64,000 nt of DNA from a virus: the IMG/VR virus record IMGVR_UViG_3300023179_000041, positions 42,279 to 106,278 of that record; one strand, given 5' to 3'. Below, one piece after another: positions 18,711-61,777 of the stretch. Position numbers and translations under genes: made by a program. The stretch's first letter is position 1. Each line of letters opens with the position of its first letter. The notes beneath the pieces are model-generated. The model ran no database searches. It saw only the letters and a list, made by a program, of their open reading frames with translations, and was not told the DNA's origin.

Positions 18711-18758
18711 GGCTTTTCGCAAATTTGACATTTCTGCGGGTTGTGGAAAAATATTTAT

Positions 18759-21700
18759 ATGCCTGCAGCATCGAGTGGTGGTGTAACGCCCCTTAGCGTA
18801 CAAATAAAAATCACCACAACTGGTGTAAGCGCCGCAGCAAGAGGGATGGGTGCTGTTGGCAAGGCTGGCGGTTCAATGAGCAGGTCGCTTGCCGCAAGTT
18901 CAATATCTACAAGAACTCTTGGCGATGCAATGCGAATGACAGCAACCCTTATGAAATACACGGTTGTTGGCGCATTTATGAATGCTGGGAAACAAGCAAT
19001 CCAAATGCAGAGACAGTTTGAGGTGGCGTTTTCTCGGATTAAGGGCTTGGTCGTTGTTGGCGGAGACAGCGTCGACAAAATGCGAGAAAAGGTTCTCTCT
19101 CTTGCTGGAGAAACCACAAGAGCGCCATTGGAACTTGCTGATGCCCTTTATTACATCACCTCTGCCGGCATCAAAGACGCAAGTACGGCGATGGAAGTTC
19201 TTGAGTCTTCAGCGAAAGCGGCAGCAGCAGGTCTTGGAACAACCAATACCGTTGCCGACGCAATCACCTCTACATTGAATGCGTACGGACAGGAAAATTA
19301 CTCTGCGGCCAAAGCCACCGACATCCTTGTTGCCACCGTGCGTGAAGGTAAAGCAGAAGCCGATACATTTGCTCCTGCACTTGGTAAGGTTCTGCCAGTT
19401 GCTGCGGCATACGGTGCATCGTTTGAAGACGTATCTGCCGCAATCGCTGCCCTATCAAGAGGCGGTTTGTCTGCAGGAACGGCAGCCATCTATGTTCGTC
19501 AAACCCTGTCTCAGTTGCTTAAGCCATCAAAGCAAGCGCAAGAAGTTCTTGCAGGTGTTGGGACCAACGCAGACGAAATTCGCAAGAACATCCAAGAAAA
19601 AGGTTTGTTCCCAGCCCTTATGGAGTTGAGAGACCAACTTGGCGGTATTGAAAATGCTGCAGACTTTACAAAAGTCTTTGGAAACGTTCGCGCCCTAACC
19701 GCAGTTTTATCATTGGTCGGTCCTGCTGCCGAAGACAATGCAAAAATCTTTGAGCGCATGCAATCTGCCACTGGAGACTTGGACTACGCATTTGCTGCTT
19801 ACGCAGACACAACAGATGCACAGTTCAACAAAGCAATGGCAGAACAGCAGGCAGCCTTAATTAAACTCGGCGAAGCCCTTAAGCCAGTCATAACAACGTT
19901 GCTAAAACTCGGAACTGCAATATCAAAAACCCTCGGCGCATTTGTTGGGACTGGATTTGGTAAGGGATTTGCGCGCGTCGCTGCCGGTGCCGTTCTAGCG
20001 ATTGCTGCTCTTTCAACGGTAATGAAAACAATGTCTGCCCTTATTCGATTGGGTTCAAACTTAAACATCACATTGTTTGGAACTCAATTTAGATATAACG
20101 CAACAACTGGCGCCATTACAAAATATACAACTGGCACAATTACAGCGGCAACAGCAACTGGAACAATGACCAGGTCGGTTGGCGCATGGACTGTGGCAAA
20201 TGGATTCTTGGCAGGTTCAATCAGGCTCGTTGCTCTTTCCATGAATTTCTTGACCAAATCAATGACCTATATTATTCCTGTTTTGACTATTGGTTTGATG
20301 TTATTCGAAGGTTTCAAGTTTATTGCCGGAATGTTCAATAGGGGCAAAGATGGTGCTGATTCACTTGGTCAAAGTGTTGGAAAACTTAACACATTGCTCG
20401 ATGAAACCGTTAAATACGGAAGGTCAAACCTTGTATTTGACGTAACAATTAACACAGATAACGCCAATTCAATGGAGGCAATTAAGCGATTGCGTGACGA
20501 AATTGAAGAACAATCGCCGAACCTATTGCCGGACTTCAAGAACCTTGTCACAAAACAGGGCGCAGAAGCAGGAGCCCTTTATATCCAGTCAATGCTTGAC
20601 ACCGCATTTGCAGGAAATACAAAAGAGTTCAAAGACACGTTTGTGCAAATGATGCTCTCGGTCCGGCCAGATGTGGCCGCTGCTTTTAAAGAACTTGGCA
20701 GCAGCGTTGACTACGACGAAGCATTTGGTGACCCGGTTACTAACGCCGAAACATTCCAGGCCCTTGCATCTGCCGTGGCAAGTGGAGGGGATGTTATATC
20801 CAGAGCATCGATTAAGGCAGGCGATGGGCTTGAATCGTTCATTAAAAAAGTTACAGATACTGAAATGGACCAACATGCCGAAAGAAGCAAGGAGGCATTG
20901 GGCGCATATGGTCAGGCATTTACTGACACAATTCAAAACACCGGACAACTTAATCCACTTGTTGCAAATATTAAAAAGTGGCAAGCATATTTTGAATCTG
21001 CTGGCACCAATTCTACCGAACAAGCCGAAATCATTTCTCAAATTGTTGGACCGGCACTTACAGGTCTAACTGGAGATTTAGACCTTGTTGCAGATTCGAC
21101 TGGAAACTTTAGGAATGTGTTCCTAAAGACTGCCAATGAGACTGCTGCCATAAAGTTTATCGAAAATACATTTGGCGTTGAAGGAGCACGCGCTCTAGAA
21201 ATTCTTGAGGTTTTGCGCGACAGAATGAGAGCAATCCCAGAAGGTGCAGAAGGTGCAGCACAATCTGCACAAGTTCTTGTTGATGCCCTTGGTGAAATGA
21301 AAGTTAAAGCAGAAGATGTTGTTTATAGCGTTTATGACCTTGATACTGCGGTAACTGCTCTTGGCGACCGTTTTTCTGAAGGTCTGCATCCAGAAGTGCA
21401 GGGCCTCGTTGATGATTTTGATGCCGCTCAAGCGGCGCTCAAGAATTTCCAAAGAGGCCAAGAAGCCCTTATGGGCGTCACAAGGGGAATGACAGAAGCA
21501 CAAATTGACTTCCGTGACTCAATGCGAGGTTTTAGGGAAGACGCAGCGGCTGCCGGTGGAGACCTTTTCTCCGGAAGCGCCAATGCCGATAAAGCCCAAG
21601 AGGGCCTCCTTGACGCAATGGACAGCGTCCTCGAAGTGGTGAATCAGTTTGCCCTTAAGGGAGATGAGGCTGGAGCCACACGTGCGCTGGGTGAGGGAAT

Positions 21701-23660
21701 CGCTCGAATTGTCGGAGACGGGATGGCGGCAGGCTTAAATGAAGAGGATATTAATAAGTTCTTGGAAATGCACAGTTTCGGTCCCGAAATGATAAATACG
21801 CTTTTGGGCGCAAAAGATGCACAAAGCGCAAACGCCCAAAAAATTGGCAATGACCTTATGTCTGGATTTGCTACTGGTATCGAAAATGGCCGACCGTATG
21901 TTTCGCAAGCGATTGACGCTGTCGGAGATGATGTTATCGCTCGTCTTAAGCGCCGCCTTGGCATCAAGAGCCCGTCAACGGTTATGGCAAAAGAGGTTGG
22001 TAAACCGTCTGCGGAAGGTGTTGCTGTTGGGTTCAAGGCAGAAATGGCTGGTAGCGCTGGTCGAGTAATTGAAAAGTCAATGGAAAACGCCATTATGAAT
22101 GCATACAAAAAAGGTGGCTATAGGGGTGCTGGCTCTTTCTTCAAAAAGTTTCTTGAGCAAAAAGAGGATGTTGAAACTCCGGCCACTGATTATGTAAAAG
22201 CCGTAATGGGGCGAATGAAAGACATCATTGGCTCTCTTTCTGGTTATATCAAGTCTCAGTTGAATTTCCGTAAGGCTCAAGCGGACTTAGCAAAACTAAT
22301 CAATATGCAAAAGGGGCTTGATGACCGCAGAAAACGTGCTGCTCGCGAGCAGCAATATGCCCAAACAAGATTCGGCATGGGTGGCGGTGCGGAAGTAACC
22401 GGATATGAACAGGCCCAACTTGACGAATTGCAACTTGAATTTGAGCGCGTATCGCGCGATTATGCAATGGGACGTGCAACATACGTTCAACTTGTGGATG
22501 CAGAAATTGCATTGTTCGAAGCACGTGCTGCTGCATCCGAGATAAATGACACAGTCATTGATTCACAAAATAAGTTCATCGATGCATCTGTTGATGTAGA
22601 AAATAAACAACTGAATCTTGCTGATGCAACAGTAAACGTTCTTTCGGCTTATCAGGGTGTTCAGGAAGCGGCAGCGGAACTTTATAAAAATCATAAAGAA
22701 CTTGAGACTGTTTATAACAATTTGGCAACAGCAACAGGAATCGCCAGTGGGAAGTTGCAAATTGGCACAACCGACCTGACTACTTTGGGTGGAGAGGTTG
22801 GCAAATATGGTGGATACGTGTCCACCGTTGGAGGATATGTTTCGACTCTTGGAAACAATGTCACGGTAACTGGGCAAGCCTTTAACACAACTCTTTACGG
22901 CGAAAATGGAGTATTTGCAAACATCATAAAGGCTGGCGGAAACGTAAAAACTCTTACGGCTGGCATTGGAGCAGATTTTACAAATCTTGCAAGAGGCCTT
23001 CTTGACACAGATAGCCAAATGTACAAAGACCTGAAATCATTGGGGCCAGCAATTTTTAAAGCCATTCAAAGTTCAGCAAACGAATCATTCGCTAAGTCGC
23101 CACTTGTTCTGAAAATCCCAGTAAGTGCAATTATTGACACTGGCGGCGGCGGCGGCTACAAAGAGCCCGATGACAAGTCGGGCGCTGGACTTGGAACAAA
23201 GCCAATGACATATTCACAATGGCTGGCTAGTTCAAAGACATCAATTGAAAATGCCGCTTGGGCAAGTTTTGGCAGCCAATACGGAGGAGGAGGTCAAGCA
23301 GTTAGGAGCCAATTGATTGATTCCGGTGCATTTGATAGGCGATATCAGAGTCTTTTGACTAGCGAATGGGATAAGTATCTTCAAGGATTTAAGGCTGTTG
23401 GCGGACCAGTTACAGGAAATATGCCATATGTCGTTGGTGAGCGCGGACCAGAAATGTTTGTTCCAAAAGTTTCCGGAACAATCGTTACCAACTCAGCACT
23501 TGACCGATATGCGCGAAATACACAACGTCAGACAGCGACATCACAGGCATCATCTGGTCATCCTATTATTGTCACGGTCAATAACCCAGTCCCGGCAGCA
23601 GCAGAGGATTCAATTACTCGCCGCATGAAGGTTCTGGCAAATAGCGGATTGTTTGGGTGA
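18759..23660 (+). CDS. tape measure protein (TP901-type)
   Basis: ~1630 aa Ala/Gly-rich helical; ADALYYITSAG, LGIKSPS, VGERGPEMFVP. Confidence 0.95.
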   Translation: MPAASSGGVTPLSVQIKITTTGVSAAARGMGAVGKAGGSMSRSLAASSISTRTLGDAMRMTATLMKYTVVGAFMNAGKQAIQMQRQFEVAFSRIKGLVVVGGDSVDKMREKVLSLAGETTRAPLELADALYYITSAGIKDASTAMEVLESSAKAAAAGLGTTNTVADAITSTLNAYGQENYSAAKATDILVATVREGKAEADTFAPALGKVLPVAAAYGASFEDVSAAIAALSRGGLSAGTAAIYVRQTLSQLLKPSKQAQEVLAGVGTNADEIRKNIQEKGLFPALMELRDQLGGIENAADFTKVFGNVRALTAVLSLVGPAAEDNAKIFERMQSATGDLDYAFAAYADTTDAQFNKAMAEQQAALIKLGEALKPVITTLLKLGTAISKTLGAFVGTGFGKGFARVAAGAVLAIAALSTVMKTMSALIRLGSNLNITLFGTQFRYNATTGAITKYTTGTITAATATGTMTRSVGAWTVANGFLAGSIRLVALSMNFLTKSMTYIIPVLTIGLMLFEGFKFIAGMFNRGKDGADSLGQSVGKLNTLLDETVKYGRSNLVFDVTINTDNANSMEAIKRLRDEIEEQSPNLLPDFKNLVTKQGAEAGALYIQSMLDTAFAGNTKEFKDTFVQMMLSVRPDVAAAFKELGSSVDYDEAFGDPVTNAETFQALASAVASGGDVISRASIKAGDGLESFIKKVTDTEMDQHAERSKEALGAYGQAFTDTIQNTGQLNPLVANIKKWQAYFESAGTNSTEQAEIISQIVGPALTGLTGDLDLVADSTGNFRNVFLKTANETAAIKFIENTFGVEGARALEILEVLRDRMRAIPEGAEGAAQSAQVLVDALGEMKVKAEDVVYSVYDLDTAVTALGDRFSEGLHPEVQGLVDDFDAAQAALKNFQRGQEALMGVTRGMTEAQIDFRDSMRGFREDAAAAGGDLFSGSANADKAQEGLLDAMDSVLEVVNQFALKGDEAGATRALGEGIARIVGDGMAAGLNEEDINKFLEMHSFGPEMINTLLGAKDAQSANAQKIGNDLMSGFATGIENGRPYVSQAIDAVGDDVIARLKRRLGIKSPSTVMAKEVGKPSAEGVAVGFKAEMAGSAGRVIEKSMENAIMNAYKKGGYRGAGSFFKKFLEQKEDVETPATDYVKAVMGRMKDIIGSLSGYIKSQLNFRKAQADLAKLINMQKGLDDRRKRAAREQQYAQTRFGMGGGAEVTGYEQAQLDELQLEFERVSRDYAMGRATYVQLVDAEIALFEARAAASEINDTVIDSQNKFIDASVDVENKQLNLADATVNVLSAYQGVQEAAAELYKNHKELETVYNNLATATGIASGKLQIGTTDLTTLGGEVGKYGGYVSTVGGYVSTLGNNVTVTGQAFNTTLYGENGVFANIIKAGGNVKTLTAGIGADFTNLARGLLDTDSQMYKDLKSLGPAIFKAIQSSANESFAKSPLVLKIPVSAIIDTGGGGGYKEPDDKSGAGLGTKPMTYSQWLASSKTSIENAAWASFGSQYGGGGQAVRSQLIDSGAFDRRYQSLLTSEWDKYLQGFKAVGGPVTGNMPYVVGERGPEMFVPKVSGTIVTNSALDRYARNTQRQTATSQASSGHPIIVTVNNPVPAAAEDSITRRMKVLANSGLFG

Positions 23661-31871: not shown

Positions 31872-33191
31872 ATGTCGGACAACATTCAAGTAAATACAGA
31901 GATAGTTGAAATCACCAGTCTTAAGCCATACCCAAAGAACCCGCGTCGCGGTGATGTTGAGGCAATCGCACAATCACTCAAAGTGAATGGACAGTACAAA
32001 CCAATCGTCGTGAATAAGCGCGACAACACCATTCTTGCCGGTAACCACACATGGAGAGCGGCACGAAGCCTGGGCTGGACACACATTGCAGTTTCGTTTG
32101 TCGATGTAGACGATTACGGTGCGCAAAAAATTGTTCTGGCTGACAATCGCACGTCCGATATGTCTTCCTATGACGATTCAAAACTCCTTGACCTTCTGCA
32201 ATCGTTGTCGACGCTTGATGGAACAGGATTCCAGCAGGTTGACATCGACCAACTTGAAGCACTAATTAGCGGAGACGGAGAATTTGAAGCGCCTAACCGA
32301 GATAGAACCGGCGCGGTTGGCAAGGAAATTCGTGTATGTGTTGGAAGTTACAGAATTCTTGTTGATGACGATGTTTACTCTGATTGGGCAAATGATATTG
32401 CTACAAAAGTTGGAGATGATGACAAGGTTCTAGTCGAACTCAAGAAGCGTTTACGTCTTTCAGATGTAACTCATTTACCACCAGAAAAAACAAAGCCAAA
32501 GCGACAAAAACGAAATATCGACAGGCAGCAAATGCACTCTGTGATGCTTTCTACGGAAAATGTCGACATCAATAGCGTCTTCCCATACCCGCTCAATGCA
32601 CGACAGGGCGATATCGGCCTGATTGCTGAATCTTTAAGCAAGAACGGTCAGTTCCGGCCAATTGTTGTCAACAAACGGGACAATTCAATCTTGGTTGGTA
32701 ATCACACGTGGAAGGCAGCCAAGATGTTGGGGTGGAAACAAATTGCGGCAACCTTTGTTGATTGCGATGAGGAGGAGGCAGCAAAGATTGTTCTTGTGGA
32801 CAACAAGACTGCAGACCTTGGGTCTTATGACCATGTTGAACTAGCAGAAATTCTTCAAACACTTCCAGTGTTTGACGGAACCGGATATACAGGAGATGAC
32901 TTAGACGACCTGATGCATGAGGTCGCCGGTTGGGGTATCAAAGAAAAACCAGTCAAAGAAAAGAACGATAAGCCCAGAAACGTTACGGCGATTATCGGAA
33001 AGTGGGAGTTCAAGATGGCGCCTAACTTTTATGAAGATTGGGAAGAGGCAATGTTTGTTGAGTTCGGATACTCATATGAAGAGGTTTGCGCTGGAATTGT
33101 TGGTCTTTTGGACATTCAAAACGATGCATGGGTTTCTACCCGTCAGCGACGTTCAAAGAAGGTCAGCCCGCGTAGGGCAAACGGAGAATAA
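31872..33191 (+). CDS. protein with two ParB/Srx N-terminal domains
   Basis: two copies of PYP.N.R.GD...IA.SL..NGQ..PIVVNKRDN.IL.GNHTW.AA..LGW...DN. Confidence 0.9.
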   Translation: MSDNIQVNTEIVEITSLKPYPKNPRRGDVEAIAQSLKVNGQYKPIVVNKRDNTILAGNHTWRAARSLGWTHIAVSFVDVDDYGAQKIVLADNRTSDMSSYDDSKLLDLLQSLSTLDGTGFQQVDIDQLEALISGDGEFEAPNRDRTGAVGKEIRVCVGSYRILVDDDVYSDWANDIATKVGDDDKVLVELKKRLRLSDVTHLPPEKTKPKRQKRNIDRQQMHSVMLSTENVDINSVFPYPLNARQGDIGLIAESLSKNGQFRPIVVNKRDNSILVGNHTWKAAKMLGWKQIAATFVDCDEEEAAKIVLVDNKTADLGSYDHVELAEILQTLPVFDGTGYTGDDLDDLMHEVAGWGIKEKPVKEKNDKPRNVTAIIGKWEFKMAPNFYEDWEEAMFVEFGYSYEEVCAGIVGLLDIQNDAWVSTRQRRSKKVSPRRANGE

Positions 33192-34738
33192 TGAAGCCCG
33201 TTCTTGCATCAGTAACAGACTTAAGGCCATCTGCATACAATCCGCGCAAAGCGGATGCAGAGAGGCTTGAGTTGGTTGAATTATCGCTGCGCAAGTTCGG
33301 TTGGCTATTACCTATCTACGCAGACAAGGATGGCGAGATTCTCAGTGGTCACCAGCGCCACATGGTCGCCACAAATATGGGAGCCACGATGGTCCCCGTC
33401 GTGCGTGTTCCTTCGTTCAAGATTGAGCGACGCATGGGCATCAACGTCCTTTATAACCGTGCTACGAACGACATGTACAAAACTCGTTCAACCACAGAAC
33501 TCAAAGATGACCTAATGGCAAAACTTGGAGACCTTGAGAAAATCAAGATGCTCCCAGACATCCCTGTTGATTCTCTAGAATGGTATCCAGTACTTAAGAC
33601 CAAGCCGGTTTCCACTCTTAGGCTCATACAACTGAACGGAAAATGGCCGGAACAGCACGCAGTTGCTATGGCAGCGCAGTTAAAAACTAACGGGCTTCCC
33701 CAGATGCCGGTCATCTGCACCACTGACTACAAGGTTCTCAATGGCCTTGCCAGGCTGACATACGCAGTGTCAGTAAATGAAGACTTTGTTCAGACCGTAC
33801 AGGTAGCGCCAGACATTGCCGAAGAGGTAACAGCAATGCTGAACCTTCTGACGATGGATTACAACATTCAAGAACGATATGAAGACCTGCTTCGATACAA
33901 CTCGTTTCGTCGAAAAAACCAACGGGTTCAGATTCTCACACCAACATTCTTGGAAGATTTTCTCCGCCACTTCATTAACTCTGGCAATCGTAACGGCGCC
34001 TTTGAACTCGATAACCCGCGCCATGTAGAACTATGGAAAGAGTATTACGGCACTCACGTCATTGACTTTGGTGCTGGTCTATGCGACAAGACTCAGATTC
34101 TCCGAAACATGGGAGTGGATGCAGTTGAATTTGAGCCTTTCTTCCTTGCCAAAGACAACGAAACAATCGATACGGACGCCGCTCGCGAACTTACGTCAAA
34201 ATTCCTTGCCCGCGTTGCGGACGGTACGGAGTGGGACAGTATCTTTATCGCTTCGGTATTCAACAGCATCCCATTCCTGCAAGACCGCAAACACGTGATT
34301 GCCATTGTCGCTTCCTTGTCGTCCCCACATACAAAACTCCACACAGCCGCTATATGCACGGAATCAGACCGTTGGTTCAATCACACTCGCGGAGATTTAA
34401 AGAAGGGACACGACACGTCAAGCAACGGATTTGCCCTTGATTACGAGCCACGCATCATCATCTCCGATATCGCTCTAAAGCCAAAGGTCCAGAAGTACCA
34501 TACCGAAACCGAGTTCAGCGAACTCATTAGGCACGGCTACCGGCATGTAGATACGTTCTTGACCGCCAAAAACGGGCTTGTTCAAGCCGTTGGTTCCAAT
34601 GCCCGACAAATTGGGGTCGACGAACTACGTGTTGCAATTGAGTTTGAGTTCAATGTCCCACATCCAGAAGGCCGTCGTCTTGGAATGGTGGAGGAAGCAA
34701 AAGCGGCGTTTTCCAAGAGGCTTGGGATTCAATTATGA
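33191..34738 (+). CDS. ParB-N domain fused to class I SAM-dependent methyltransferase-like domain
   Basis: YNPRK...ILSGHQR; VIDFGAG; DSIFIASVFNSIPF. Confidence 0.75.
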   Translation: MKPVLASVTDLRPSAYNPRKADAERLELVELSLRKFGWLLPIYADKDGEILSGHQRHMVATNMGATMVPVVRVPSFKIERRMGINVLYNRATNDMYKTRSTTELKDDLMAKLGDLEKIKMLPDIPVDSLEWYPVLKTKPVSTLRLIQLNGKWPEQHAVAMAAQLKTNGLPQMPVICTTDYKVLNGLARLTYAVSVNEDFVQTVQVAPDIAEEVTAMLNLLTMDYNIQERYEDLLRYNSFRRKNQRVQILTPTFLEDFLRHFINSGNRNGAFELDNPRHVELWKEYYGTHVIDFGAGLCDKTQILRNMGVDAVEFEPFFLAKDNETIDTDAARELTSKFLARVADGTEWDSIFIASVFNSIPFLQDRKHVIAIVASLSSPHTKLHTAAICTESDRWFNHTRGDLKKGHDTSSNGFALDYEPRIIISDIALKPKVQKYHTETEFSELIRHGYRHVDTFLTAKNGLVQAVGSNARQIGVDELRVAIEFEFNVPHPEGRRLGMVEEAKAAFSKRLGIQL

Positions 34739-49882: not shown

Positions 49883-50926
49883 ATGTCCAAAGAAACTATG
49901 GAGTGGCTCAACTCCAACATTCTCGTCGGGTTCACCGCCGAGCGTGGGAACGCGTGGCACTACCGCGCCGACCTACAAGGTTCAGAGCCAAACCACTACG
50001 AAGGCGCGATTCCGACCGACGATATTCTTCGTCGGCTCTTCGCGTGGTCGGCAGTATCGGCTCCCGTTTTTGTTCGTGTCCCCGCGACACTTGAAGACGC
50101 GACCTCAACCGATGACGAAGGCAATCCAATCAAGTTCATTCGCGTAGAGCGTCAAGCAATCTTGCGCTCAGATACCAACGAACTGATGGAAATCTTCGGC
50201 AACGACTATCGCTCGCACCAATACGGCGAGTGGCTCGTTCAGAACCTTGCGAACATCGTTGATGGAAATATCAACTTTGGCTCGGCAGGGCTCTTGAAGA
50301 ACGGCGCAGTTGCGTTCGTCTCGTTGGAAATGCCAGAGTCAGTAGAAGTGTTGGAAGGATTCTCAGTCCGACCGCACCTACTCGCGACTACTTCGCACAA
50401 CGGAATGTTGGCAACGACCTACAAGAGCGTTTCTACATTCGTCGTGTGCGATAACACTCACGCGATGGCGATGAGCGAAAACACGAGTCAGTTCAAGACC
50501 CGACACAGCAAGTATTCGGGAATGAAGATTCAGTCTGCTCGTGACGCTCTTGGTATCGTTCACAAGATGACGGAAGATATCGTCGCGGAAGTGACGAAAC
50601 TGTCCGAAGTCAAAGTGACCGACGCAGAATGGCAAAAAGTGCTTGAAGCACTCGCGCCTATTCCGTCGCTTGCGAAAGACGAAAGCAACAAGGCAGCAGT
50701 GACGCGCGCAGAGAATAAGCGCGCCGAACTTGTCGGTCTTTACAACTACGATGTTCGCGTGGCACCGTGGAAGGGTTCAGCACTTGGAGTTCTTCAAGCG
50801 TTCAACACTTACAACCACCACATCGTCGGCAACGACAAGAACCGCGCCGAGCGCAATCAAATGAACGCGCTAATGGGCAAGACCGAGCAGAGTGACCGAA
50901 AGGTTCTCCAACTTCTCGGAGTCTGA
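49883..50926 (+). CDS. DUF932 family (phage/plasmid-like) protein
   Basis: AWH, SAGLL..G, LLATTSHNG, VVCDNT, RH. Confidence 0.85.
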   Translation: MSKETMEWLNSNILVGFTAERGNAWHYRADLQGSEPNHYEGAIPTDDILRRLFAWSAVSAPVFVRVPATLEDATSTDDEGNPIKFIRVERQAILRSDTNELMEIFGNDYRSHQYGEWLVQNLANIVDGNINFGSAGLLKNGAVAFVSLEMPESVEVLEGFSVRPHLLATTSHNGMLATTYKSVSTFVVCDNTHAMAMSENTSQFKTRHSKYSGMKIQSARDALGIVHKMTEDIVAEVTKLSEVKVTDAEWQKVLEALAPIPSLAKDESNKAAVTRAENKRAELVGLYNYDVRVAPWKGSALGVLQAFNTYNHHIVGNDKNRAERNQMNALMGKTEQSDRKVLQLLGV

Positions 50927-50958
50927 CCGCGTACAGGTGGGGTGCGAAAGCACCCCAC

Positions 50959-50972
50959 CGAACACGCGTTCG
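50959..50972. promoter_or_regulatory. LexA (SOS) box, actinobacterial type
   Basis: CGAAC-ACGC-GTTCG. Confidence 0.65.
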
Positions 50973-51290
50973 GGCCGCGAGCGCGCGGCGAGGCCGGGAA
51001 CAGGGACCGACGAACCGGACATGCCAGGGTCCAAGGGAACGGCGCAGCATAAGAATAAAACCATTGGTAATGGAACACCATTTCTTGGGTCGGGAGCAGG
51101 AGCAGGTTTACAGCGCACCGGCGCATAGCAAAACTGTTAGGCAAGCCTTACAAAAGAAACTTTGCACAATCTCAGTTTCGGGTTGCGCACCACACCCCAA
51201 GTGTGGTACAGTATAGGTATGGGGTTAGCACCCCAGAAAATAATTCAGAATAAGGTTGCGAAAGCGACTAGAATGTGATACAGTATAAGT

Positions 51291-51517
51291 AGTGGGAAAC
51301 CACTACGGAATCACTAACAACATACGGATAGCATTACCAGTCACGCGTTGTATCACCAGCGATGTGCGAGAGAAGTGCCGCGGCACCCACTCAGTTCCTC
51401 TCCTGCGATGAGCCGCCTCTGCTAGTCCCTGCTATCGGCGGCAACCAGACTTGCTATCTGGTGGGTCGCAACGAAATGGGCAACGACGGTTGCTGTTGGT
51501 GGTTTCGTAGTGGTTTC
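51291..51517 (+). ncRNA. candidate ~225-nt structured ncRNA
   Basis: own promoter; 24-bp 5'/3' stem whose three deviations are all G-U pairs; internal hairpins. Confidence 0.7.
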
Positions 51518-51609
51518 TGACTGCGATAGGTTGCGAAAGTGCCTAGCGTGTGATACAATCTAAGTAGTGGGCAATCCCGCCCACTACAAACACAAGGAAA
51601 GGCAACACA

Positions 51610-52062
51610 ATGAGTACCATCAGCAATACGACGGAACTGAGCGTGGGAGAAATCGTCTCACTGCTCGGCGCAAACTGTCTCAACACCAACCCGACTATCG
51701 GCACTGCCCCCACAAAGGCTCGTGTCGCACCCGTAGCGTTCCACGACGGACACCCAATCTGGGTCAAAGACTTGGAACAGCGTGGCGGAGATGTGTACGA
51801 CCTGCTGGATACAATCACCCCCGACGAGTCTGCGAACTATTACGGGGTCATTACGGCTGGTTGGGCTTCGCCCGTTGGAGACAACGACCACCTGCCACCG
51901 TCTCAGCACCCTGAGCGTCGGCGTGTGGAGTTGCTGGTCGTCGTCAATCGTGACGGCTCAATAGCAAGCGCACTCTCAATGTCGGGCAACGACGAACTGA
52001 TTATTGACGAAGGCAAAGCGCACGGCGCACTTGCCGACGCAGTTCTCGGTATCTTCGCCTGA
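51610..52062 (+). CDS. hypothetical protein
   Basis: GWA.P...PSQHPERRRV; promoter, SD and 3' hairpin. Confidence 0.75.
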   Translation: MSTISNTTELSVGEIVSLLGANCLNTNPTIGTAPTKARVAPVAFHDGHPIWVKDLEQRGGDVYDLLDTITPDESANYYGVITAGWASPVGDNDHLPPSQHPERRRVELLVVVNRDGSIASALSMSGNDELIIDEGKAHGALADAVLGIFA

Positions 52063-55673: not shown

Positions 55674-55940
55674 ATGGCAAATGTTCCAGTCCCGTTTCAG
55701 GGAACCAAAGAAGAGGCTGAGGCTAACTACCTCACGCATTCGTGGTGGTCGTTTGACGGCACGCCCGTTTGCGGAGAATGTGACGCAAAGGCTTGGCACC
55801 AAGCGGCCAACTACCCTTGCGGCACCGAGCCTGAGCGTCTTAATGTCGCAGACCTATCAGAGTGGGCAGCCCTAATCAAGGGTGAAATCACGCTGGCAGA
55901 GTTGCGAGAGCGTGAAAAGTGTGATACAATAGAAGTATAA
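55674..55940 (+). CDS. small Zn-binding protein
   Basis: H.W...CxxCDA...YPCGT. Confidence 0.65.
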   Translation: MANVPVPFQGTKEEAEANYLTHSWWSFDGTPVCGECDAKAWHQAANYPCGTEPERLNVADLSEWAALIKGEITLAELREREKCDTIEV

Positions 55941-55996
55941 GGTCGAGTGCGGCTGGTGGGGTTCCTTACCTCCTTTCCCCACCAGCCCAAGACCTC
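55939..55996 (+). ncRNA. candidate hairpin sRNA with anti-SD loop
   Basis: promoter 55902-55930 with no gene downstream; loop TTCCTTACCTCCTTT. Confidence 0.55.
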
Positions 55997-56091
55997 CCCA
56001 CGGCAGGGCCGACAGGGGCAGAATCGCAGAAAGGCAGGTTGCAAAACGCGAACAGATGTGATACACTGGAAGTATGAGGAAAGGAAAAACA

Positions 56092-61394: not shown

Positions 61395-61646
61395 ATGAAC
61401 ATCGGACAACTAGCAACGGCACACATTCGCAACGGCGGAACCGCTAAGGCTTCGTCGTGGCGTGCTTATCAGGGCGAGAAGGTACGAGAAATCTACCACT
61501 ACACCACCTTGATGGCGAAGGTCGAAGGCAAGACCCTCACCAAGGTAAGTGAAGGTTGGGGCTCAGTCACCGATAAGCAAGGCTGGCGAAAACTGAGCAA
61601 CGCTGCCCGAAATGCAGGGTTCACCGTGAACGAGTTGCAAAACTAA
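61395..61646 (+). CDS. small hypothetical protein
   Basis: AGGAGG SD; HY.T.M...GWGS.TDKQG. Confidence 0.7.
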   Translation: MNIGQLATAHIRNGGTAKASSWRAYQGEKVREIYHYTTLMAKVEGKTLTKVSEGWGSVTDKQGWRKLSNAARNAGFTVNELQN

Positions 61647-61670
61647 TAGAAGTGTGATACAATAGGACTA

Positions 61671-61734
61671 GAGTGGTTGGGGCGGGCTAAACCGGCTGCG
61701 GAACAGAGGCGTCGTGCTCTCGCCTCAACCACTC
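61671..61734 (+). ncRNA. candidate ~65-nt hairpin RNA
   Basis: own promoter; 16-bp stem with two G-U pairs; no ORF. Confidence 0.55.
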
Positions 61735-61777
61735 ACAGAAAGTTGCAAAACCAAGGGAAATCTGTTATACTAAAGAT

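What the first reader, a model, noticed from the sequence alone, without database searches (positions are those of the whole stretch)
51256..51517. A cassette whose cargo is a ~225-nt structured RNA
Seen: a standard promoter is followed by no SD-led gene. 51296-51319 pairs with 51494-51517 over 24 bp with all three deviations being G-U. Inside are GAGAG/CTCTC with a GTGCC/GGCAC hairpin, and TGCGA/TCGCA enclosing GCCGCC/GGCGGC and ACCAGA/TCTGGT. The 5' end can alternatively form GTAGTGG-GAAA-CCACTAC. Only a 52-codon SD-less ORF overlaps. Inference: novel ncRNA, perhaps a polymerase-binding (6S/Ms1-like) or defence-decoy RNA.
Basis: partly seen in the sequence, partly recalled or inferred. Interest (0 to 1): 0.75.

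Follow-up and report, generated by a model that had tools for sequence, protein, structure and literature searches.

The report
New structured RNA gene in lake phages
A promoter in an uncultured freshwater phage drives a roughly 230-base non-coding RNA whose elaborate fold is kept by compensating mutations in relatives, matches no known RNA family, and has no known function.

Summary
Window 51296-51319 pairs with 51494-51517 (24 bp, 3 G-U). The + strand folds far better than shuffles (z -5.4), the - strand does not (z -2.5).

The element is conserved. 22 distinct copies were found in freshwater phage and metagenome contigs. On the final alignment 90% of cells pair against 74% when shuffled (0/500), and 47 of 69 pairs show changes on both sides. 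Slid partners give 28-46%.

Every copy examined upstream has its own promoter. The 52-codon ORF exists only in the window's clade. The cassette changes place relative to neighbouring genes.

The fold has a long closing helix (P1, P1b), a central domain (P2 enclosing hairpins P3, P4, P5) and two further hairpins (P6, P7). P4's tip is always a palindrome (CCGCGG, CCAUGG or CCUAGG). P5's loop is pyrimidine-rich and resembles the 16S anti-Shine-Dalgarno sequence.

Rfam has no match. The genome has no reverse transcriptase or Ro60 gene. The 6S/Ms1 idea is not supported.

Best reading: an autonomous, stable early phage RNA acting in trans. Function and mechanism are inferred, and direct evidence of expression is weak.

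The parts
49883..50926 (+). Upstream gene, a DUF932 / TIGR03299 'phage/plasmid-like protein' (347 aa from the ATG at 49883). It was used as the anchor to find relatives.
   Evidence: Pfam PF06067 at 1e-34; phrog_1221; relatives. The closest cultured relatives are actinobacteriophages.
51183..51212 (+). Upstream tandem promoter (TTGCGC ... TGTGGTACAGT). It is followed only by a short hairpin (51220-51235) and an A/U-rich stretch before the RNA's own promoter.
   Evidence: The same arrangement is seen in L005, L008 and L009. In other strains 51186-51289 is replaced by a 32-nt stretch that I read as a single promoter (tables 5 and 5c).
51256..51284 (+). The RNA's own promoter: -35 TTGCGA (51256-51261) and extended -10 TGTGATACAGT (51274-51284). 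The inferred start is about 51289-51292.
   Evidence: Every distinct copy examined upstream has a promoter at the same distance, of several sequence types (L202).
51291..51520 (+). The non-coding RNA, about 230 nt. The ends are inferred, not mapped.
   Evidence: Fold z -5.39. CM hits of 208-266 bits in 18 full-length relatives and about 70 bits in 3 distant ones. Covariation.
51296..51318 (+). P1 5' arm, pairing with 51495-51517. Closing helix of 20-24 bp with conserved G-U pairs.
   Evidence: 98.3% of cells paired, 11 of 20 pairs changed on both sides.
51321..51326 (+). P1b 5' arm (CAUACG), pairing with 51472-51478.
   Evidence: 95.3% paired, 4 of 6 pairs covary. Variants: CACAUA/UAUGUG, CAAUCA/UGGUUG, CAAACA/UGUUUG.
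51327..51333 (+). P2 5' arm (GAUAGCA), pairing with UGCUAUC at 51430-51436. It closes the central domain. A conserved CCC bulge lies at 51427-51429, and inner extensions lie at about 51336-51343 with 51418-51426.
   Evidence: The arms differ and stay complementary in every clade. Six of 7 pairs covary on A9 despite residual misalignment of the window's clade.
51346..51361 (+). P3 hairpin CGUUG-UAUCAC-CAGCG. Stem and loop are almost invariant.
   Evidence: 97.6% paired, but no double changes, so it is conserved as sequence.
51375..51386 (+). P4 hairpin GUGCCGCGGCAC. The tip is a 6-nt palindrome, CCGCGG at 51378-51383.
   Evidence: The stems covary (GACUG/CAGUC, UAAGU/ACUUA, CUCGU/ACGAG, CCAGU/ACUGG ...). 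All 22 copies have CCGCGG, CCAUGG or CCUAGG at the tip.
51390..51412 (+). P5 hairpin: CUCA/UGAG around the 15-nt loop GUUCCUCUCCUGCGA (51394-51408). Family consensus of the loop is YCCCUCCUGCG.
   Evidence: The loop motif CUCCCUCCUGCG is kept even in the most distant copies.
51438..51469 (+). P6 hairpin: P6a GCGGC/GUCGC, P6b ACCAGA/UCUGGU, conserved loop CUUGCUA.
   Evidence: 98% paired. Four of 5 (P6a) and 5 of 5 (P6b) pairs changed on both sides.
51479..51494 (+). P7 hairpin GGCAAC-GACG-GUUGCU with an invariant GACG loop. It abuts the P1 3' arm.
   Evidence: 97.6% paired, 4 of 6 pairs covary.
51495..51517 (+). P1 3' arm. No U-tract terminator follows it. In many relatives this arm contains the -35 (TTGCTT) of the next promoter.
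51531..51559 (+). Promoter of the next cassette, not part of the RNA.
51610..52062 (+). Downstream gene of unknown function (150 aa). In most relatives its homologue lies next to the RNA, sometimes before it and sometimes after it.
   Evidence: AF2 model pLDDT 83.8, with no clear PDB fold match.

Best explanation
The stretch is an autonomous gene for a stable, highly structured, non-coding RNA of about 230 nt. It is carried in the early region of a clade of uncultured freshwater phages. Their host is probably an actinobacterium.

Shown here: a strong sigma-70-type promoter sits just upstream. The fold consists of a 20-24 bp closing helix (P1, P1b), a central domain (P2 enclosing hairpins P3, P4, P5) and two further hairpins (P6, P7). 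This fold is maintained by compensatory substitutions.

Inferred: the RNA is made early and in quantity. The long terminal helix protects its ends, and may act as the stop signal or as an RNase III-type processing site. It then acts in trans through its invariant single-stranded parts. Two of these suggest how:
- The 6-nt palindrome at the tip of P4 could join two copies loop to loop.
- The pyrimidine-rich P5 loop (CCCUCCU, like the 16S anti-Shine-Dalgarno sequence), together with the CCC bulge, could pair with G-rich ribosome-binding sites or bind a protein.

My odds: that it is a real conserved structured RNA gene, about 0.9. That it acts in trans as a free RNA or RNP, about 0.6. For each specific mechanism (dimerisation, anti-SD pairing), about 0.3.
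For: - Fold: + strand z -5.39 against -2.48 for the - strand. Conserved G-U pairs in P1 (UG in 21 of 21 at one pair) point to RNA of the + strand.
- Relatives: 22 distinct copies.
- Covariation on A9: 90.1% of cells paired against 74.2% shuffled (0/500). 47 of 69 pairs changed on both sides. Covariation score 0.446 against 0.182. Slid partners 28-46%.
- An independent RNAalifold run found 22 of 42 pairs with compensatory changes.
- P2, P4 and P5 arms differ yet stay complementary in each clade.
- Every copy examined upstream has its own promoter, of differing sequence.
- The ORF is not conserved.
- The cassette lies before or after the homologue of gene 51610 in different phages, so it is an independent module.
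- All 22 copies have a CC-NN-GG palindrome at the P4 tip.
- The P5 loop, GACG loop and P3 loop survive in copies scoring only about 70 bits.
- Another promoter-driven hairpin in the same phage displays UUCCUUACCUCCUUU, so anti-SD-like loops recur here.
- Weak expression hint: one run labelled metatranscriptomic holds a 184-nt contig (depth 17.9) only on 51323-51503 and nothing on the flanks.
Against: - No mapped 5' or 3' end and no solid expression data. The run with the RNA-only contig may be DNA. The clear RNA run (X19) covers only downstream sequence (51537-51687 and 51821-51971).
- No terminator with a U-tract follows P1, so transcripts may run on.
- The palindrome rests on three variants only (two changes that each kept symmetry, chance roughly 1 in 16). 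The same bases could simply be a stem plus tetraloop.
- Pyrimidine-rich loops pair with purine-rich sequences trivially, and no target was identified.
- No partner protein was found.
- All relatives were found through one neighbouring gene, so the true range of the family is not known.
Confidence: 0.6

Rival explanations
1. It is a cis-acting leader or processing element of the early transcript. The structure acts on the transcript that carries it, for example as an RNase III processing site, an mRNA-stabilising 5' module, a processive antiterminator (like put of HK022), or an insulator between cassettes.
For: No U-tract terminator follows P1. In L150 and L148 no promoter lies between the RNA and the next gene. 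In many copies the P1 3' arm overlaps the -35 of the next promoter. One RNA-library contig starts at 51537, upstream of the next cassette's expected start, which fits read-through.
Against: The gene downstream differs between relatives (three families), and the cassette sits on either side of the 51610 homologue. Most copies are followed by a separate promoter. A 23-bp P1 is too stable to switch. About 170 nt of conserved multi-helix core is far more than a processing site needs. Other cassettes of this phage use only a short 5' hairpin.
Confidence: 0.17
2. It is a decoy or sponge against a host factor. The phage floods the cell with a structured RNA that titrates an RNA-sensing or RNA-cutting defence protein, for example a toxin that cuts the 16S anti-SD region, a dsRNA sensor, or Rho.
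For: Early region, strong promoter, long dsRNA-like helix, and conserved C-rich single strands that resemble the 16S 3' tail (AUCACC in the P3 loop, CCUCCU in the P5 loop). A second anti-SD-like hairpin RNA is present in the same phage.
Against: No defence target is known. The host is not identified. Nothing tested here tells a decoy from a regulator. This rival overlaps with the best explanation (both are trans-acting).
Confidence: 0.12
3. It is a 6S/Ms1-like RNA that binds host RNA polymerase.
For: It has its own promoter, a size near 200 nt and a long terminal helix.
Against: The fold is multi-branched, with four branch points in the model, rather than a rod with a central open-promoter-like bubble. 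No 6S or Ms1 model matches even at E<=10.
Confidence: 0.04
4. It encodes a small protein (the 52-codon ORF 51362-51520 or another frame).
For: An ATG ORF of 46-55 codons is present in the five copies of the window's clade. One frame is open over 72-84 codons in several other copies.
Against: The ATG and the frame are absent from the other clades, and the L007 clade has no frame open for more than 31 codons. There is no SD. Substitutions follow base pairing, not codon position.
Confidence: 0.02
5. It is a DNA-level element (cruciform, origin, or operator array) and not an RNA.
For: It contains inverted repeats and a palindromic hexamer.
Against: G-U pairs are conserved on the + strand only (UG in 21 of 21, 16 of 21 and 10 of 21 at three P1 pairs). 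These would be A-C mismatches on the other strand. The - strand folds much worse, and the CM scores it about 25 bits against about 210-266 bits. A promoter is placed exactly in front of every copy examined.
Confidence: 0.03

Closest known systems
Orphan large structured RNAs of phages and prophages (GOLLD, ROOL, Lacto-phage-1 and similar Rfam motifs)
   Same: Carried by phages, non-coding, a complex multi-helix fold supported by covariation, function unknown. From my own knowledge, ROOL and GOLLD form RNA-only multimers, which a palindromic loop here could also allow.
   Different: No sequence or structure match. The best Rfam hit is Lacto-phage-1 at 16 bits against a gathering score of 50, E=2, and the helix it aligns (GCCG/CGGC) is not conserved in this family. 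This RNA is much smaller than GOLLD or ROOL. No tRNA genes lie in the window.
6S RNA / mycobacterial Ms1
   Same: Own promoter, size near 200 nt, long helix formed by the two ends.
   Different: Branched core instead of a rod with a central bubble. No model match.
Dimerisation hairpins with palindromic loops (HIV-1 DIS; HCV 3'X CUAG) - from my own knowledge
   Same: A hairpin whose loop carries a 6-nt self-complementary sequence, with loop changes that keep the symmetry (CCUAGG, CCGCGG, CCAUGG).
   Different: Those belong to eukaryotic RNA virus genomes. Here dimerisation is untested, and in the window's clade the hairpin could close into a tetraloop.
C-rich-loop regulators of Gram-positive bacteria (actinobacterial 6C RNA, RsaE/RoxS) - from my own knowledge
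   Same: Conserved unpaired C-rich motifs that could pair with G-rich ribosome-binding sites.
   Different: Those RNAs are about 60-115 nt with two or three simple hairpins. No Rfam match to 6C or RsaE. Here the C-rich loop is one element of a much larger fold.
Adenovirus VA RNA I and phi29 pRNA, virus-made structured RNAs with a terminal helix and a central junction - from my own knowledge
   Same: Own strong promoter, a helix formed by the 5' and 3' ends, a conserved central domain, and virus-encoded trans action.
   Different: Different virus groups and no homology. This phage carries a 1639-aa ORF (18741-23660) that I read as a tape-measure gene, unlike phi29-type viruses. Function here is unknown.

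Membership tests
Any Rfam 15 family | Score at or above the family's gathering threshold | tested here: not met
   0 hits in the whole window. At E<=10 on 51100-51700 only Lacto-phage-1 (16.1 bits against 50) and isrK (13.9 against 50) appear. Nothing lies on the RNA in five relatives.
6S RNA / Ms1 | Rod-like fold with a large central bubble flanked by closing and terminal stems | tested here: not met
   The consensus fold has four branch points and seven helices beyond P1.
6S RNA / Ms1 | Binding to RNA polymerase and templating of product RNA | not testable with these tools
   Needs biochemistry.
Retron msr-msd RNA | Reverse transcriptase gene adjacent to the RNA | tested here: not met
   No RVT_1 match in the 106-kb record, which is 79% complete. 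The neighbours are DUF932 and small unknown proteins.
Bacterial Y RNA (YrlA) | Ro60/Rsr (TROVE) gene in the genome, and a match to the YrlA model | tested here: not met
   No TROVE match and no Rfam hit.
Riboswitch or other cis-regulatory leader | Fixed position upstream of one gene family, with an expression platform (a switchable P1 or terminator) | tested here: not met
   Downstream genes belong to at least three families and the order is variable. P1 is 20-24 bp and 98% paired. Most copies are followed by a separate promoter.
Protein-coding small ORF | Start codon and reading frame conserved across relatives | tested here: not met
   The ORF is present only in the window's clade.
Kissing-loop dimerising RNA | Self-complementary loop sequence conserved or co-varying so that symmetry is kept | tested here: met
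   22 of 22 copies have CCGCGG, CCAUGG or CCUAGG at the P4 tip. There are only three variants, so this is suggestive.
Kissing-loop dimerising RNA | Dimer formation in solution that depends on the loop | not testable with these tools
   Needs native gels or SEC with loop mutants.

The most novel reading that the evidence does not exclude
The RNA is a new class of phage effector RNA. It would self-assemble, as a homodimer or larger, through the palindromic P4 loop. The assembly would display several anti-Shine-Dalgarno-like loops that capture host ribosome-binding sites, or a host factor that recognises the 16S 3' tail. It would act as one member of a set of such RNAs in this phage (the other at 55936-56040). 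That would make it an RNA-only host-takeover or anti-defence device in actinophages.
Probability: 0.2. Interest if true: 0.85.

Novelty: categorically new. Interest (0 to 1): 0.72.

Why it matters
Complex RNA folds of this size with this much covariation are rare. When solved, they have usually turned out to be ribozymes, riboswitches or parts of RNA-protein machines.

This one is an autonomous gene in the early region of abundant lake phages, whose hosts are probably freshwater actinobacteria. It therefore points to an unknown RNA-based step in phage takeover or counter-defence.

The palindromic loop and the anti-SD-like loop each give a hypothesis that can be tested directly. The alignment and models made here are enough to seed a new RNA family.

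'New' here applies to the RNA family. Since the function is unknown, it could still turn out to work like a known kind of regulator.

Tried and rejected
**Searches that found nothing**
- blastn of 50900-51650 against 50,697 phage records: no match.
- Two pattern scans of 185,579 species genomes: no copy, so no prophage or host was found.
- A 17-mer scan of IMG/VR gave 120 mostly chance hits. nhmmer kept only the known contigs, and the L040 double hit is a coding repeat.
- A mis-spaced pattern found nothing. The corrected pattern added no new member.
- CM searches found nothing in 25 more distant DUF932 loci, in 72 further IMG/VR loci apart from the L195/L196/L202 clade, or in the phages Madraxi, Orchid, Gina and Trogglehumper and the L010 contig.

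**Similarities and partners considered and dropped**
- Lacto-phage-1: rejected, because the aligned helix is not conserved in the family.
- Retron, Y RNA, 6S, riboswitch and small ORF: rejected (see Membership tests).
- Possible pseudoknots (P5 loop with the 5' leader, P3 loop with the P6 bulge, P7 loop with the P5 loop): examined by eye, no consistent covariation, dropped.
- Neighbour protein 51610-52062 as a partner: the AF2 model is good (pLDDT 83.8), but Foldseek found no hit at E<=0.001 and VIA-align's best Z was 4.5, so there is no lead.

**Reads**
- The RNA run X19 does not cover the RNA itself.
- The lack of cover in X20's flanks is not proof of anything.

**Methods and tools**
- All-against-all column covariation was uninformative because of shared ancestry.
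- The literature search gave nothing relevant.

Full report
**1. The observation.**
The window is the right-hand 64 kb of a 106-kb IMG/VR virus record.

At 51256-51284 lies TTGCGA-N12-TGTGATACAGT. About 28 copies of this extended -10 promoter occur in the genome. Nearly all are on the + strand between 47.7 and 64 kb, and most are followed by a short 5' hairpin, an SD and an ATG.

The promoter at 51256 is followed instead by about 230 nt without an SD-led gene. Bases 51296-51319 pair with 51494-51517 (24 bp, three G-U).

The + strand RNA folds to -103.4 kcal/mol (z -5.39, 0 of 200 shuffles as good). The - strand reaches only z -2.48.

**2. Relatives.**
The gene upstream (49883-50926) is a DUF932/TIGR03299 protein. 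I used it as an anchor and found related loci in IMG/VR and in freshwater metagenomes.

A covariance model built from the first five copies found full-length copies in 22 further loci. After removing duplicates there were 18 full-length sequences plus one copy cut off by a contig end. A second round with more distant DUF932 proteins added a divergent clade, L195, L196 and L202. These score about 70 bits and carry a 27-nt insertion in P4.

Runs holding the stretch are lake or freshwater metagenomes from 10 studies.

No copy was found in any of the following:
- cultured phages;
- the 185,579 species genomes scanned by pattern;
- phages whose DUF932 is 58% identical or less.

The closest cultured relatives of the DUF932 protein are all actinobacteriophages, so the host is probably an actinobacterium.

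**3. Structure.**
RNAalifold on 18 copies gave 42 pairs, 22 of them with compensatory changes. Single-sequence folds of diverse copies and arm-by-arm comparison gave the full architecture:

| Helix | Window sequence or position | Note |
|---|---|---|
| P1 | 51296-51318 with 51495-51517 | closing helix |
| P1b | CAUACG with CGAAAUG | |
| P2 | GAUAGCA with UGCUAUC | closes the central domain; conserved CCC bulge; inner extensions |
| P3 | GUUG-UAUCAC-CAGC | almost invariant |
| P4 | GUGCCGCGGCAC | palindromic tip |
| P5 | CUCA, loop GUUCCUCUCCUGCGA, UGAG | pyrimidine-rich loop |
| P6a/b | 51438-51469 | loop CUUGCUA |
| P7 | GGCAAC-GACG-GUUGCU | invariant GACG loop |

On the final 22-sequence alignment (A9, model R3):
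- 90.1% of cells form standard pairs, against 74.2% after shuffling (0/500).
- 47 of 69 pairs show a change on both sides.
- The covariation score is 0.446 against 0.182.
- Sliding the 3' partners by 1-3 columns drops pairing to 28-46%.
- P1, P1b, P6a, P6b and P7 are 95-98% paired.
- P2, P4 and P5 score 68-80% on this alignment. The main cause is that the window's clade is shifted by one base in the alignment. Per clade their arms are complementary.

A caveat: A9 was fitted to the model's structure. The RNAalifold result and the per-sequence folds do not depend on that fit for P1, P1b, P6 and P7.

Conserved G-U pairs on the + strand (for example UG in 21 of 21 at one P1 pair) show that the selected molecule is + strand RNA, not duplex DNA.

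- GAGAG/CTCTC, TGCGA/TCGCA and GCCGCC/GGCGGC are specific to the window's clade or conflict with covarying helices.
- GTGCC/GGCAC (P4) and ACCAGA/TCTGGT (P6b) stand.
- The alternative 5' hairpin exists only in the window's clade.

**4. It is a gene of its own, and not coding.**
Each distinct copy examined upstream is preceded by a promoter at the same distance, although the promoter sequences differ. In some strains the tandem promoter region 51186-51289 is replaced by a 32-nt stretch that I read as a single promoter.

The 52-codon ORF is present only in the five copies of the window's clade. The L007 clade has no frame open for more than 31 codons.

The cassette order varies between phages. 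In some it is DUF932, RNA, then the homologue of gene 51610. In others it is DUF932, the homologue, then the RNA. A few lack that gene nearby. The downstream gene belongs to at least three families.

This argues against a dedicated cis-regulator and for a mobile, self-contained unit.

No U-tract terminator follows P1. In this phage the DUF932 gene, too, ends with a GC-rich hairpin without a U run. P1 may therefore itself stop transcription or be cut by RNase III. That is inference.

**5. Expression.**
Only contigs could be laid, and only once.

A run labelled metatranscriptomic, but possibly DNA, holds one 184-nt contig at depth 17.9. It lies wholly inside the RNA (51323-51503, 11 differences) and nothing from that run lies on the flanking 1.4 kb.

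A true RNA-seq run holds two low-depth 151-nt pieces downstream (51537-51687 and 51821-51971). The first begins upstream of the next cassette's expected start, which fits read-through.

These are weak hints only.

**6. Features that suggest a mechanism.**

(a) The P4 tip. All 22 copies carry a CC-NN-GG palindrome there. The window's clade has CCGCGG or CCAUGG, and every other clade, including the most distant, has CCUAGG. The stems around it differ and covary. Two changes both kept the self-complementarity (chance about 1 in 16). In several clades the hexamer sits in a 7-9-nt loop, the geometry of a kissing-loop dimerisation site. This is suggestive, not proven.

(b) The P5 loop. YCCCUCCUGCG, the CCC bulge of P2 and the GACG and UAUCAC loops are kept even in the 70-bit copies. 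CCUCCU resembles the 16S anti-SD sequence.

The same phage has another promoter-driven hairpin (55936-56040) whose 15-nt loop is UUCCUUACCUCCUUU. Display of anti-SD-like loops therefore seems to be a theme of this phage.

No target or partner was identified. The frequently adjacent 150-aa protein has a confident model but no recognisable fold.

**7. Comparison with what is known.**
Rfam 15 gives nothing at gathering thresholds. At E<=10 there are only two sub-threshold hits, and nothing lies on the RNA in five relatives.

The genome has no reverse transcriptase and no Ro60/TROVE gene, and holds one copy of the RNA.

The branched fold does not fit 6S or Ms1. P1 is too stable for a riboswitch.

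In kind, the nearest things are the orphan structured RNAs of phages (GOLLD, ROOL, Lacto-phage-1). In possible mechanism, they are C-rich-loop regulators and palindromic-loop dimerising RNAs. It is a member of none of these.

**8. Verdict.**
This is a real and well-supported new family of structured phage RNA. Its function is unknown.

The most likely reading is a stable, trans-acting early RNA (about 0.6). Dimerisation and anti-SD-type pairing are testable sub-hypotheses (about 0.3 each). A cis role in processing or read-through is the main rival (about 0.17).

This same stretch was also noted from another window of the same genome. The follow-up reports on it were withheld, so I could not use them.

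Noticed in passing
window 43547-64000 (+), plus 58702, 59723 and 61313 (-): About 28 copies of one strong promoter type (TTGCRA-N12-TGTGATACAMT) punctuate the early region. Most are followed by AGT near the start, a short 5' hairpin, an SD and an ATG. It is a strikingly modular 'one promoter per small gene' layout.
   Followed up: partly
window 55902-56040 (+): A promoter without a gene drives a strong hairpin whose 15-nt loop is UUCCUUACCUCCUUU, the 16S 3' tail sequence (fold -45.4 kcal/mol, z -2.7). It looks like a second small RNA with an anti-SD-like loop.
   Followed up: partly
window 61635-61745 (+): Another promoter without a gene drives a 64-nt hairpin (GAGUGGUUGGGGCGGG ... CUCAACCACUC; z -3.5). 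It is directly followed by the next promoter.
   Followed up: partly
window 58702, 59723, 61313 (- strand): Three minus-strand copies of the same promoter, each with a T-rich -35 region, are followed by very G+C-rich sequence with no obvious SD-led gene. They are possibly antisense or non-coding transcripts.
   Followed up: no
window 51183-51255 (+): A tandem promoter in front of the RNA's promoter drives only a 16-nt hairpin (51220-51235) and an A/U-rich tail. The arrangement is conserved in L005, L008 and L009. In other strains it is replaced by a 32-nt stretch that reads as a single promoter (joint 51185 to 51290).
   Followed up: partly
window 51610-52062 (+): A conserved 150-aa protein family (motifs GWASP, PPSQHPERRRV, RDG..ASA, DEG.A.G.LA) lies next to the RNA on either side in most relatives. 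The AF2 model has pLDDT 83.8, with no PDB fold match (best Z 4.5) and no Pfam or PHROG family.
   Followed up: yes
window 50927-50965 (+): A GC-rich hairpin (GGUGGGGUGC-GAAA-GCACCCCACC) without a U-tract follows the DUF932 stop codon. It is a likely terminator of the U-less type. The 50970-51180 spacer before the RNA cassette is non-coding and G+C-rich.
   Followed up: no
window 31872-34738 (+): Two adjacent ParB-N domain proteins lie here. One has two ParB-like stretches and the other is fused to a further domain (phrog_5475).
   Followed up: no
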